DNA of 64,000 nucleotides from Malacoraja senta. Lineage: Eukaryota. Shown here piece by piece: positions 13,601 to 16,600 of the stretch; the stretch's first letter is position 1, and each line of letters begins with the position of its first letter. The translations under genes and the position numbers were made by a program. The stretch spans positions 23,810,001-23,874,000 of the forward strand of contig CM075987.1 in the NCBI GenBank assembly GCA_038087875.1, given 5' to 3'. Under the pieces are notes generated by a model. It was not told where the DNA came from. It saw only the letters and a list, made by a program, of their open reading frames with translations, and made no database searches.

Positions 13601-16600
13601 ATTTGAGTATAGGAGCAGGGAGGTTCTACTGCAGTTGTACAGGGTCTTGGTGAGACCACACCTGGAGTATTGCGTACAGTTTTGGTCTCCAAATCTGAGG
13701 AAGGACATTATTGCCATAGAGGGAGTGCAGAGAAGGTTCACCAGACTGATTCCTGGGATGTCAGGACTGTCTTATGAAGAAAGACTGGATAGACTTGGTT
13801 TATACTCTCTAGAATTTAGGAGATTGAGAGGGGATCTTATAGAAACTTACAAAATTCTTAAGGGGTTGGACAGGCTAGATGCAGGAAGATTGCTCCCGAT
13901 GTTGGGGAAGTCCAGGACAAGGGGTCACAGCTTAAGGATAAGGGGGAAATCCTTTAAAACCGAGATGAGAAGAACTTTTTTCACACAGAGAGTGGTGAAT
14001 CTCTGGAACTCTCTGCCACAGAGGGTAGTCGAGGCCAGTTCATTGGCTATATTTAAGAGGGAGCTAGATGTGGCCCTTGTGGCTAAAGGGATCAGAGGGT
14101 ATGGAGAGAAGGCAGGTACGGGATACTGAGTTGGATGATCAGCCATGATCATATTGAATGGCGGTGCAGGCTCGAAGGGCCGAATAGCCTACTCCTGCAC
14201 CTAATTTCTATGTTTCTATGTTTCTATGTATCCTGTACCTGCTTTCTCTCCATAACCCCCTGATACCTTTAGAAACATAGAAACATAGAAAATAGGTGCA
14301 GGAGTAGGCCATTCGGCCCTTCGAGCCTGCACCGCCATTCAATATGATCATGGCTGATCATCCAACTCAGTATCCCATCCCTGCCTTCTCTCCATACCCC
14401 CTGATCCCTTTAGCCACAAGGGCCACATCTAACTCCCTCTTAAATATAGCCAATGAACTGGCCTCAACTACCTTCTGTGGCAGAGAATTCCACAGATTCA
14501 CCACTCTCTGTGTAAAAAATGTTTTTCTCATTTCAGTCCTAAAAGTCTTCCCCCTTATCCTTAAACTGTGACCCCTTGTCCTGGACTTCCCCAACATCGG
14601 GAACAATCTTCCTGCATCTAGCCTGTCCAACCCCTTAAGAATTTTGTAAGTTTCTATAAGATCCCCCCCTCAATCTTCTAAATTCTAGCGAGTACAAGCC
14701 GAGTCTATCCAGTCTTTCTTCATATGAAAGTCCTGACATCCCAGGAATTATACCAAGTATACAAACCCAAACCAATTAACCTAAAAAGCTGTACATCTTT
14801 GAAGTGTGTGAGGAAACCGATGATCTCGGGGAAGACCCAGGCGGTCACGGGGAGAACGTACAAACTCTGTGCAGACGGCACCCGTGGTCGGGATCGAACC
14901 GCCGCTGTAAGGCAGCAACTCTATCGCCGCGCCACCGTGCCGCAGTTAATAAAAGAAAATATTTGATAAACTGCGTGGCTTATCAGCAGAAGGAATGCGG
15001 GAACAATGCGTTTTAATTCCTATTACAAAATATGTCACACAGTGATAGTTCATGCCGTTACCTGATATTGAGGATCTACCTGCCAATAATCTATGTTGAG
15101 AGTTGTTTGCTGGAGATAGTTTGTCCTAATGGTTATGAGGAAATGTTTATCTAACAATTGTTTGTGCTGCAGATTACTGGACAAATGTTTATCCAGCCTT
15201 CTTTACCCAATGCTGGCTATTTGTTGGTGCAGCGGTAGAGTTGCTGCCTCACAGCGCCAGAGACCCAGGTTCAATCCTGACTATGGGTGCTGTTTGGATG
15301 GAGTTTGTACGTTCTCCCCGTGACCTGCGTGGGTTTTCCCCGGGAGCTCCGGTTTCCTCTCACACTTCAAAGACGTACAGCTTTGTAGGGTTTCGGCCCG
15401 ACCCGAAACGTTGCCTATTTCCTTTGCTCCATAGATGCTGCTGCACCCGCTGAGTTTCTCCAGCATTTTTGTGTACCAGCTTTGTAGGTTAATTGGCTTG
15501 GTATAAATGTAAATTGTCCCTAGTGTGTCTAGGGTGGTGTTAGTGTGCGGGGATCGCTGGTCGGTGCGGACTCGGTGGGCCGAAGGGCCTGTTTCCGCAC
15601 TGTATCTCCAAACTAAACTAAACTAAACTCTGCTCAGTCTGAAGAAGGGTCTCGACCCGAAACATCACCCCTTCCTTCTCTCCAGAGATCAGTCTGAAGA
15701 AGGGTCGCAACCCGAAACATCACCCCTTCCTTCTCTCCAGAGATCAGTCTGAAGAAGGGTCTCGACCCGAAACGTCACCCGTTCCTTCTCTCCAGAGAGG
15801 CTGCCTGTCCCGCTGAGTTACACTTGCATTTTGTGTCCATAACCTAATATAACCGTGGACTGGTCATTAGGCAAATGTTTACCCGCTGATAGTTTTTACT
15901 GTCACATGAGTGTTTAGTGTTAGCAGTTTGCGTTCCAACCGTTTGTGACCCTTGTCTGGGTTTTGGTCTTTCACAGCTGAAGTGAATTACTGCTTCCAGC
16001 TCTCCCAGCTGTTCAGGCAGGGGAAGAATTTGACATTGGAGCATCCGGGAGAATCTGGAGCTCACAGTCTAACCACAAATCTGCTGTTTCTGGTTAACTG
16101 CGGCTGGTTTCATTATTAGGCAACTAATAATGTCCTAATGTTGCATGTGAAATGGAAGCAGTGATTTCAACAAAATGGCAGAGTGTTGTATAACAGGGAA
16201 ATACAACTTATGGGAAAGGCAGGCTTGCTAGCTGGGAATTATTATCAAAATGTGGCAACATATATCGTCAGACTGAGTGAGGGCTGATTCCCAGCTAGAA
16301 ATGTACTCTTCCACCAAGTCCAACTGCACCTCCTGACCCATCAACAAATCAATCCAAAATCCAACAGCCCAAACTAACAAAGAACAAATGTTTAACTGGT
16401 AACCAGCAGTCTAATATAGGTTAAACGATCACCATAAGATCACACTGGGGCAGCATTAGGCCATTCAGCCCATCGCGTTCGCTCCGCCATTCGATCACGG
16501 CCGATCTACCTTTCCCTCTCAACCCCATTCTCCTGCCTTCTCCCCATAACACTTTGACGCCCCAGACTATTAGGGCAATCTGGCAGAGTGAACAATACTC

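What the first reader, a model, noticed from the sequence alone, without database searches (positions are those of the whole stretch)
15635..15820. Tandem trimer of minimal hammerhead-ribozyme cores, in sense, inside a VAV2 intron
Seen: three 55-nt units, each with CUGAAGA-A-stem II-GAAAC(A/G)UC (cores at 15639, 15694, 15749). Stem II GGGU/ACCC is kept while the loop changes (CUCG, CGCA, CUCG). Established: Penelope-like elements carry minimal type I hammerheads with a vestigial helix III, thought to work as dimers. Inference: a tandem array offers the geometry for intramolecular dimer folding and could cut the VAV2 pre-mRNA or release a 55-nt unit. Caveats: helix I is only about 2 bp, and only unit 3 retains the palindromic ACGU.
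Basis: partly seen in the sequence, partly recalled or inferred. Interest (0 to 1): 0.72.

Follow-up and report, generated by a model that had tools for sequence, protein, structure and literature searches.

The report
Triplicated retrotransposon hammerhead relic, VAV2 intron
Three tandem 55-base units in a VAV2 intron each carry the minimal hammerhead-ribozyme motif typical of Penelope-like retrotransposons, but they are a decayed fragment of a repeat present tens of thousands of times in this genome, so the find is correct but ordinary.

Summary
A 55-nt x 3.0 tandem array lies at 15634-15798, with CUGAAGA cores at 15639, 15694 and 15749. It sits on the sense strand of a VAV2 intron.

The motif belongs to the 3' untranslated tail of a very abundant Penelope-like element (PLE). 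[quoted passage not shown] The exact 31-mer core occurs 13,276 times in the 1.94-Gb genome.

The units fit the published PLE minimal hammerhead (min-HHR). They have an extra A after A9, a G10.1-C11.1 stem II, and GAAAC(G/A)UC. A covariance model built only from PLE relatives in other organisms scores them 34.2, 33.4 and 30.8 bits. Rfam's hammerhead models miss both the units and those relatives.

Activity here is unlikely:
- Helix I is 2 bp.
- Units 1 and 2 have lost the ACGU palindrome.
- A ribozyme-compatible fold lies 15-22 kcal/mol above the predicted minimum.
- Copies decay neutrally.
- Tandem arrays also form from a tail segment downstream of the ribozyme motif.

This is a new member of a known kind, of low interest.

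The parts
15634..15798 (+). Tandem array of three 55-nt units, a triplicated piece of a Penelope-like element's 3' tail
   Evidence: TRF: period 55, 3.0 copies, 94% matches, score 302
15639..15666 (+). Unit 1 minimal hammerhead core: CUGAAGA-A-GGGU CUCG ACCC-GAAAC-AUC. The palindrome has decayed to ACAU.
   Evidence: Sequence. Model R1 hit 15631-15674, 33.4 bits, rough E 3.7e-7
15694..15721 (+). Unit 2 core: stem II loop changed to CGCA, palindrome decayed to ACAU
   Evidence: Sequence. R1 hit 15686-15729, 30.8 bits
15749..15776 (+). Unit 3 core: identical to the commonest genomic form, with ACGU intact and C17 at 15776
   Evidence: Sequence. R1 hit 15741-15784, 34.2 bits. Exact 31-mer found 13,276 times in the genome
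15799..15840 (+). Rest of the element's 3' tail after the array: short-form end, without the optional tail of about 35 nt
   Evidence: Aligns to the family tail ...GCUGCCUGUCCCGCUGAGUUAC...UUUGUGUC. Among 30 loci, 19 end in the short form and 11 carry the longer tail
15610..15629 (+). (AAACT)4 microsatellite ending the upstream repeat. The element fragment starts 5 nt after it.
   Evidence: TRF. A second copy abuts (AAACT)n at about 26445 on the minus strand
11029..11169 (+). VAV2 exon upstream of the intron (aa 426-472 of P0229)
   Evidence: tblastn, 96% identity, E 6e-23
17063..17176 (+). VAV2 exon downstream of the intron (aa 470-507 of P0229)
   Evidence: tblastn, 97% identity, E 1e-18
15390..15476 (+). 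Separate 87-nt fragment of a sister subfamily tail (GGGUUUCGGCCC type), flanked by a 12-bp target-site duplication CAGCTTTGTAGG at 15378-15389 and 15477-15488
   Evidence: Read from the sequence. Copy listed
46286..46900 (+). Window copy that links motif and coding region: hammerhead motif (46286), endonuclease-domain remnant LVYIAETKGRLGDRFAEHL ... LEEQHLIFRLGNLQPSGMNIEF (46339-46590), about 200 nt of 3' UTR, a second hammerhead motif (46790), then the tail
   Evidence: R1 hits at 46278-46321 and 46782-46825

Best explanation
The array is a relic of a Penelope-like retrotransposon (PLE). A 5'-truncated copy of the element's 3' untranslated tail landed in sense in a VAV2 intron, next to an (AAACT)n microsatellite. 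A 55-bp piece of it, carrying the element's minimal type-I hammerhead motif, now stands in three tandem copies.

The origin of the triplication is inferred. It arose either by slippage or unequal exchange, or by template switching of the element's reverse transcriptase at insertion.

In the parent element the motif lies about 200-230 nt after the stop codon of the ORF (reverse transcriptase plus GIY-YIG endonuclease in full-length relatives) and about 100-135 nt before the element's end. From published work on other PLEs, not shown here, such hammerheads act on the element's own tandem transcripts. They do so weakly, as dimers through the ACGU palindrome and/or with help from the element's protein.

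In the VAV2 intron the three units are most likely inert passengers. What is shown here: the array, the motif anatomy, the PLE origin, the likeness to foreign PLE hammerheads, the decay of the copies, and the intronic sense position. What is inferred: the mechanism of triplication and the lack of activity.
For: (1) Array and cores are real.

(2) It is a dispersed repeat. There are 19 copies of the 25-mer in the window on both strands, 13,276 exact 31-mers and 48,684 exact 17-mers in the genome.

(3) PLE origin. Upstream homology among 30 loci runs into an ORF end ...[25 protein letters not shown]. Window copy 46286-46900 carries the endonuclease remnant. A 58-aa query gave 72,442 first-look candidates, and all 150 that were scored had E <= 2.4e-24. 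The longest frame examined is 438 aa. Its relatives are 770-1100 aa proteins, E down to 3.5e-147, listed with RVT_1 and in part GIY-YIG. P0007 has RVT_1 at 291-479 and GIY-YIG at 708-751, 25 bits against a cut-off of 22.6. The linker CX4CX2C is invariant in 10 of 10 aligned proteins.

(4) PLE-style insertion anatomy: variable 5' truncation, inverted partner copies, and an optional tail of about 35 nt in 11 of 30 loci. This matches PMC8557442 and PMC11167929 (passages read).

(5) Motif fits the published min-HHR features in PMC4209133 (text read): a nucleotide between A9 and G10.1, a G10.1-C11.1 pair, and palindromic 15.2-16.2.

(6) PLE relatives from other organisms carry the same kind of motif. 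There are 24 descriptor hits in 253,442 bases against 1.27 +/- 1.34 in 30 shuffles. By my comparison of the start positions with the ORF match ends listed, about a dozen of the 19 forward-strand hits lie 100-180 nt after the ORF match end. The 15 hits taken for the model all have A as the extra base.

(7) Model R1, built from 15 of those hits and none from this genome, scores the three units 34.2, 33.4 and 30.8 bits over the full model.

(8) Evidence for decay and inertness. Only 23 of 101 unselected copies keep all motif parts, with CpG-type decay at the same sites as in units 1 and 2. MFE z-scores are -0.24 for the trimer and -0.01 for a single copy. A hammerhead-compatible fold lies +15.2 kcal/mol above the MFE, or +18.3 to +22.4 with a helix III duplex. 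No read-end pile-up was seen in the one raw RNA run.
Against: All three units keep both catalytic boxes and stem II, so residual activity cannot be excluded by sequence alone. Nearest-neighbour folding ignores the tertiary contacts of hammerheads. Published PLE hammerheads are themselves poor folders that still cleave as dimers or with protein (PMC4209133, PMC11167929).

The same 55-nt junction occurs in at least two other, unrelated loci (L014 with three units, L009 with about 1.6). Simple one-off slippage does not predict this.

The RNA lay was dominated by reads from other copies: 99% of laid reads run on unlike the stretch. It came from one poly(A) run of an organism that holds only about half of the sampled words, so it says little about this locus.

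My own Pfam scan of the 438-aa frame gave GIY-YIG at only 17 bits, below the cut-off. RVT_1 in P0007 scored 29.4 against 29.6. The domain calls therefore rest on relatives and on precomputed annotations.
Confidence: 0.8

Rival explanations
1. The trimer is an active double hammerhead. Two units pair through their helix III halves, cleave the VAV2 pre-mRNA in cis, and release 55-nt RNAs. This would lower VAV2 output or yield a small RNA.
For: Three intact CUGANGA and GAAA boxes and stem II helices lie 55 nt apart in sense. Published PLE and vertebrate retrozyme hammerheads work better as dimers or multimers (PMC4209133 text; PMC7229834 abstract). R1 scores are high.
Against: Units 1 and 2 read ACAU, so any helix III duplex has 1 or 2 mismatches in 4 bp. 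Helix I has 2 bp, whereas relatives have at least 3 covarying pairs. Hammerhead-compatible folds lie +15 to +22 kcal/mol above the MFE. Other sense copies sit in the same gene body: by my count from the table, 6 hits on the + strand and 2 on the - strand at E <= 0.05 within 455-39844. No end pile-ups were seen. Published min-HHR multimers cleave poorly even in vitro (PMC4209133).
Confidence: 0.07
2. The array is a very short retrozyme-like unit. A hammerhead-bounded RNA was circularised and copied by rolling-circle reverse transcription using PLE enzymes, giving head-to-tail 55-nt copies. The many 30-66-nt arrays in this genome would be the same phenomenon.
For: There are 566 adjacent pairs of the hammerhead 17-mer within 10-100 nt, with many different periods and some arrays of four or more units. 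The same 55-nt junction occurs at unrelated loci. A 2026 preprint reports vertebrate retrozyme consensus lengths from 51 to 972 bp and a PLE origin (results section read).
Against: A control 17-mer from the tail downstream of the hammerhead forms tandem pairs more often: 12,263 per 129,767 singles against 566 per 48,684. The dominant 66-nt unit lacks the CUGANGA box and stem II. Some listed arrays cut through the CUGAAGA box. No circular or junction-enriched RNA was seen. One rare subfamily has a native 12-nt direct repeat (11 of 12 bases alike) spaced exactly 55 nt apart around the motif (L013), which predicts 55-nt slippage products.
Confidence: 0.05
3. The hammerhead likeness is accidental, and the repeat is the terminal inverted repeat of a foldback or MITE-type DNA transposon.
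For: Many copies occur as close inverted pairs with long complementary arms (window 5041/5057, 6538-6593, 8894/8922, 59731/59763; L001, L004, L007). Rfam finds no hammerhead.
Against: The arms are 3' ends of a coding PLE, and their inner break points vary as in 5'-truncated inverted PLE copies (PMC8557442). The motif recurs after the ORF in PLEs of other organisms with covarying helices. A model from those hits recognises the units. Rfam also misses those relatives, with 0 hammerhead matches in 6 loci.
Confidence: 0.03

Closest known systems
Minimal type-I hammerhead motifs (min-HHR) in the pseudo-LTRs of Penelope-like elements (Cervera & De la Pena 2014, PMC4209133; Lunse et al. 2016/17, seen only as a reference and in a review passage, PMC6765202)
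   Same: CUGANGA and GAAA boxes. One unpaired base between A9 and G10.1. G10.1-C11.1 closing stem II. No helix III hairpin but a palindromic ACGU, and H17. Position in the non-coding tail of an element coding RT plus GIY-YIG. Massive genomic copy number, mostly as solitary truncated copies and inverted pairs.
   Different: Helix I is only 2 bp in this family, where the paper describes 4-5 bp in schistosome min-HHRs and 2 bp only for the Drosophila virilis variant. Stem II is 4 bp rather than the 7-8 bp seen in schistosomes. In this array two of three units have lost the palindrome. The units are 55 nt apart because of a local triplication, not because of whole-element tandems.
Poseidon PLE of Anolis carolinensis (PAc; Frangieh et al. 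2024, PMC11167929)
   Same: A PLE with a hammerhead in the pLTR. Two alternative 3' ends 30-40 nt apart (the 'tail'), as seen here in 11 of 30 against 19 of 30 loci. That study also found no RNA-seq reads ending at the hammerhead site.
   Different: The PAc hammerhead overlaps the ORF start and was shown to cleave only with the element's protein. Nothing was assayed here. The element here has the CX4CX2C linker that the literature assigns to the Neptune/Nematis clades, not to Poseidon.
Non-LTR retrozymes of animals (Cervera & De la Pena 2020, PMC7229834 abstract; Li et al. 2026 preprint, 10.64898/2026.07.22.740005, abstract and results)
   Same: Head-to-tail tandem units, each with a type-I hammerhead that is thought to need a dimer. 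Derivation from PLE pLTRs. Occurrence in a cartilaginous fish is reported in the preprint.
   Different: Retrozymes are about 170-400 nt and expressed as linear and circular RNA. Here the unit is 55 nt with three copies, two of them damaged, and there is no evidence of circles. Tandem arrays in this genome also form from a tail segment without the ribozyme core.
Conserved intronic hammerheads of amniotes (Rfam HH9/HH10; recalled, not read here)
   Same: A hammerhead motif in sense within an intron of a protein-coding gene.
   Different: Those are single, canonical, deeply conserved ribozymes that Rfam models detect. This one is a recent repeat fragment that no Rfam model detects.

Membership tests
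PLE-associated minimal hammerhead (min-HHR) | Catalytic boxes CUGANGA ... GAAA in type-I order | tested here: met
   Present in 3 of 3 units at 15639, 15694 and 15749
PLE-associated minimal hammerhead (min-HHR) | One unpaired nucleotide between A9 and G10.1, and stem II closed by G10.1-C11.1 | tested here: met
   A, then GGGU/ACCC, in 3 of 3 units. The same extra A is present in 15 of 15 foreign PLE hammerheads
PLE-associated minimal hammerhead (min-HHR) | Palindromic 15.1-16.1 (ACGU or AUAU) for helix III in trans, followed by H17 | tested here: inconclusive
   Unit 3 has ACGU-C. Units 1 and 2 have ACAU-C. Among 101 unselected copies, 53 keep ACGU
PLE-associated minimal hammerhead (min-HHR) | Helix I of several base pairs flanking the core and the cleavage site | tested here: not met
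   Only A-U and C-G, then a mismatch. Relatives have 3 covarying pairs, 95.6% paired. A 2-bp helix I is described for the D. virilis variant (PMC4209133)
PLE-associated minimal hammerhead (min-HHR) | Lies in the non-coding repeat (pLTR or 3' tail) of an element encoding RT plus GIY-YIG endonuclease | tested here: met
   Met for the family. The array itself is a fragment without an ORF
PLE-associated minimal hammerhead (min-HHR) | Scores against a sequence-and-structure model of other members | tested here: met
   R1, built from 15 foreign members, gives 34.2, 33.4 and 30.8 bits, with rough E-values from 2e-7 to 2e-6
PLE-associated minimal hammerhead (min-HHR) | Self-cleavage after H17 | not testable with these tools
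   Only indirect evidence: an unfavourable fold and no read-end pile-ups in one RNA run dominated by other copies
Rfam hammerhead families (type I, II, III, HH9, HH10) | Match at the curated gathering score | tested here: not met
   0 matches in the window at gathering. No hammerhead among 6 matches at E <= 10 in 15350-15900. Control: 0 hammerhead matches in 6 foreign PLE loci that carry min-HHRs, so this test cannot see the min-HHR kind
Non-LTR retrozyme | Head-to-tail tandem units, each with a hammerhead | tested here: met
   3.0 units of 55 nt. The unit length is inside the 51-972 bp range of the 2026 preprint but below the 170-400 nt of PMC7229834
Non-LTR retrozyme | Expressed as linear and circular RNA of unit length | tested here: inconclusive
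   The one raw RNA run gave no unit-length joints or ends, and its reads were almost all from other copies

The most novel reading that the evidence does not exclude
The 55-nt trimer, and the hundreds of 30-66-nt arrays of the same motif elsewhere in this genome, are ultra-short retrozymes. Dimeric hammerheads formed between neighbouring units, perhaps helped by the PLE protein, would excise unit-length RNAs that are circularised and copied back as tandem DNA. These would be the smallest ribozyme-bounded mobile units known, and one of them would sit in sense within VAV2 pre-mRNA.
Probability: 0.05. Interest if true: 0.6.

Novelty: new member of a known kind. Interest (0 to 1): 0.2.

Why it matters
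It adds one more vertebrate genome in which PLE tails with minimal hammerheads have multiplied to tens of thousands of copies. Judging by the best-matching VAV2 proteins, the host is probably a cartilaginous fish. It also shows that Rfam's hammerhead models are blind to this class, whereas a small custom model finds it cleanly.

For VAV2 it probably matters not at all. If the trimer were active, it would be a natural case of a repeat-borne ribozyme cutting a host pre-mRNA, and a test bed for how tandem spacing switches dimeric hammerheads on. The evidence here points the other way.

Tried and rejected
- **Rfam.** A scan at gathering and at E <= 10 found no hammerhead. I judged this uninformative after the control on foreign PLE loci.
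- **Foldback or MITE reading.** Considered because of the inverted pairs. Rejected once the ORF linkage appeared.
- **LINE tail.** Two regions with paired motifs on contig C1 showed only a CR1-like LINE ORF nearby on the other strand and no PLE ORF.
- **Stem II covariation among genomic copies.** None was found. This is expected for copies of one recent master, so it is not decisive.
- **Literature search for the sequence itself.** Four strings gave 0 papers. The sequence is therefore not printed in the searched library. Repbase and Dfam could not be consulted.
- **Sequencing runs.** No RNA holder was listed. The one raw RNA run, added by study, was laid, but 99% of its reads continued into unlike sequence, meaning other copies. 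It gave no information on this locus, and no contig spanned the array in the DNA runs.
- **Earlier findings of this scan.** Nothing for this genome or sequence. There is one parallel rotifer case.
- **Lunse et al.** The paper could not be read because it is not held.
- **Is tandem formation specific to the hammerhead?** The control 17-mer says no.
- **Supplements.** The supplementary figures of PMC4209133 and the tables of the 2026 preprint were not seen. They may already list a cartilaginous-fish family like this one.
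Full report
**1. The observation**

Tandem Repeats Finder reports one array at 15634-15798: period 55, 3.0 copies, 94% matches, no indels, score 302. Each unit reads CAGU-CUGAAGA-A-GGGU(loop)ACCC-GAAAC-(A/G)UC-ACC.... The CUGAAGA boxes start at 15639, 15694 and 15749. The stem II loops are CUCG, CGCA and CUCG. Units 1 and 2 read ACAU where unit 3 reads ACGU.

**2. Genomic context**

- A RhoGEF-domain exon lies about 1 kb before the window on the + strand (C11:23808868-23808987, 29.7 bits).
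- Its translation finds proteins that their sources name VAV2. Among them are VAV2 of skates, rays and sharks at 94-97% identity.
- One of them (P0229, 877 aa) maps residues 314-877 in order onto the + strand of the window, from 455 to 39844, in 20 of 20 HSPs.
- The array lies between the exons at 11029-11169 and 17063-17176. It is therefore intronic and in sense, as claimed.

**3. The motif is part of a dispersed repeat**

- The 25-nt core occurs 19 times in the window with up to 3 mismatches, on both strands. None of 100 shuffles gave a match.
- The exact 31-mer occurs 13,276 times in the 1.94-Gb genome.
- The exact 17-mer GGGTCTCGACCCGAAAC occurs 48,684 times.

**4. What the repeat is**

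Thirty loci of one subfamily share homology from about 300 nt before the motif to 100-145 nt after it, with ragged 5' ends. The upstream part is the end of an ORF...[25 protein letters not shown], followed by about 230 nt of untranslated sequence.

The window holds such a copy at 46286-46900. It has a GIY-YIG-type remnant, LVYIAETKGRLGDRFAEHL.

A 58-aa query from it gave 72,442 first-look candidates in the genome. All 150 that were scored had E <= 2.4e-24.

The longest open frame I examined is 438 aa. Its relatives are proteins of about 770-1100 aa, with E down to 3.5e-147. They are listed with RVT_1 and, in part, GIY-YIG.

In my own scan:
- P0007 has RVT_1 at 291-479 (29.4 bits, cut-off 29.6) and GIY-YIG at 708-751 (25 bits, cut-off 22.6).
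- The 438-aa frame itself reaches only 17 bits for GIY-YIG.

A reverse transcriptase followed by a C-terminal GIY-YIG endonuclease is the architecture of canonical Penelope-like elements (PMC8557442 and PMC11167929, passages read). The linker CX4CX2C is invariant in 10 of 10 aligned proteins. The literature assigns such a linker to the Neptune and Nematis clades.

Further PLE hallmarks are present:
- Inverted, 5'-truncated partner copies: window 5041/5057, 6538-6593, 8894/8922 and 59731/59763.
- Two alternative 3' ends about 35 nt apart: 19 short and 11 long among 30 loci.
- Two copies that abut an (AAACT)n microsatellite: 15610-15629 and about 26445.

**5. Is the motif a hammerhead of the PLE kind?**

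Cervera and De la Pena (PMC4209133, text read) define min-HHRs by four features. These are the catalytic boxes, a nucleotide between A9 and G10.1, a G10.1-C11.1 pair, and a palindromic 15.2-16.2 in place of a helix III hairpin. The family's commonest sequence, identical to unit 3, has all four.

To test this independently, I fetched 80 loci encoding relatives of the ORF from metagenome contigs.

- A simple descriptor (CTGANGA, 0-1 nt, a hairpin of at least 4 bp, GAAA) hit 24 times in 253,442 bases. Thirty dinucleotide shuffles gave 1.27 +/- 1.34, with a maximum of 5.
- By comparing the hit positions with the ORF match ends listed, I found about a dozen of the 19 forward-strand hits 100-180 nt after the end of the ORF match.
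- 15 of the 24 hits have the A-N-N'-U palindrome plus H17.
- The 15 hits I took for a model all have A as the extra base.

In the alignment of those 15, 98.1% of cells pair, against 67.4% in shuffles, and 28 cells change on both sides (0 of 500 shuffles reach this). Stem II pairing was demanded by my descriptor, so only helix I is an unbiased witness. Helix I was not demanded, and its three pairs all show changes on both sides and are 95.6% paired.

The covariance model built from these 15 sequences (R1) contains nothing from this genome. It finds 41 matches in the window at E <= 10, of which 24 have E below 0.05. The three units score 34.2, 33.4 and 30.8 bits over the full model (the E-values are rough).

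Rfam's hammerhead models find nothing in the window. They also find nothing in six of the foreign PLE loci. The Rfam negative therefore says nothing about this class.

**6. Reasons to think the trimer is inert**

- Helix I is 2 bp, whereas the relatives have at least 3 covarying pairs.
- Units 1 and 2 carry G-to-A at the CpG of ACGU. That site reads A in 12 of the 56 unselected copies spanning columns 27-115.
- Of the 101 unselected copies that cover the motif, 23 keep all its parts and 53 keep ACGU. Stem II shows one-sided changes and 1 compensatory cell in 404. The core columns are no better kept than the tail. The copies therefore decay neutrally.
- The predicted MFE of the trimer (-53.6 kcal/mol, z = -0.24) and of a single copy (z = -0.01) is no better than shuffles. 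It pairs GAAGAAGGG with the downstream CCCUUCC.
- Forcing three stem II hairpins with open cores costs +15.2 kcal/mol. Adding a helix III duplex between any two units costs +18.3 to +22.4 kcal/mol.
- By my count from the table, six R1 matches lie in sense within the VAV2 gene body, three of them outside the array.
- Published min-HHR multimers cleave weakly (PMC4209133). The one PLE hammerhead studied with its protein cleaved only when that protein was present (PMC11167929).
- In the one raw RNA run that could be laid, no position showed an excess of read ends. However, 99% of the laid reads continued into unlike sequence, meaning they came from other copies.

**7. How the triplication arose**

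The junction 29-mer occurs 8 times in the genome with up to 1 mismatch, and 2 of those are in the window. The others divide as follows:
- L014/L015 is an unrelated locus with three units.
- L009 has about 1.6 units.
- L012 and L013/L016 are single copies of a rare subfamily. In that subfamily a 12-nt direct repeat, CTCTCCAGA(C/G)AT with 11 of 12 bases alike, natively flanks the motif at exactly 55-nt spacing.

Such a repeat predicts 55-nt slippage products. Template switching by the element's reverse transcriptase is an alternative that I cannot exclude.

Tandem arrays containing the hammerhead 17-mer are frequent: 566 adjacent pairs within 10-100 nt, with many different periods. A control 17-mer from the tail downstream of the hammerhead forms 12,263 pairs among 129,767 singles. 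Most of these belong to a 66-nt satellite that lacks the CUGANGA box and stem II. Tandem formation is thus a property of these tails in general, not of the ribozyme.

**8. Verdict**

The array is a triplicated, partly decayed fragment of a PLE tail in a VAV2 intron. It is a new member of a known kind.

The functional idea of cutting VAV2 pre-mRNA or releasing a 55-nt RNA is not excluded by sequence alone. It has no support here, and several observations count against it. The boldest reading still open is that this genome's short arrays are ultra-short retrozymes. I give that about 5%.

Noticed in passing
G000:C1:2699057-3451513 and elsewhere: A 66-nt tandem repeat built from the PLE tail. It runs from GAAACGUCACC to ...CUCCAGCACUCUGU, so it lacks the CUGANGA box and stem II. 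There are 12,263 adjacent pairs of its 17-mer genome-wide, in many short arrays on both strands.
   Followed up: partly
G000:C2:192808621-195118960: A dense cluster of 46-nt and 40-nt tandem units carrying the hammerhead core spans about 2.3 Mb of contig C2. Some units have CAGUCAGAAGA in place of CUGAAGA. This looks like a satellite-like region derived from the same tail.
   Followed up: no
window 15378-15488: An 87-nt fragment of a sister PLE subfamily (15390-15476) sits inside another repeat with a clean 12-bp target-site duplication, CAGCTTTGTAGG. Its 5' end starts with a short inverted piece (GTTTCGGCCC followed by GACCCGAAAC).
   Followed up: partly
window 5041/5057, 6538-6593, 8894/8922, 59731/59763: Head-to-head inverted pairs of the PLE tail. 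Transcribed through, they would form long, near-perfect hairpins. Their inner break points differ from pair to pair.
   Followed up: partly
window 455-39844 (+): VAV2 coding exons for residues 314-877 of a named skate VAV2 protein. The last coding match is at 39797-39844, so the rest of the window is 3' UTR or intergenic.
   Followed up: yes
window 45126-46139 (+): A 337-aa open frame of low complexity, rich in P, S and L, in a G+C-rich stretch just upstream of the PLE copy at 46286. Its nature is unknown.
   Followed up: no
window 59740-59783 (+): The best R1 match in the window (45.5 bits) has a 3-bp helix I (GGU/ACC), but its palindrome has decayed to AUGU. It is half of an inverted pair.
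   Followed up: no
window 15480-15840, run X24: Poly(A) RNA reads of a related organism cover the PLE tail and the neighbouring repeat about equally in both read orientations, up to roughly 1000-fold in the unit 3 bins. These repeats are therefore common in transcripts of both strands.
   Followed up: partly
L017 3214-4968 (-) (G000:C1:3992213-3993967): A 584-aa CR1/L2-like LINE reverse-transcriptase frame lies next to PLE tail copies. The two repeat families are interleaved in this genome.
   Followed up: no
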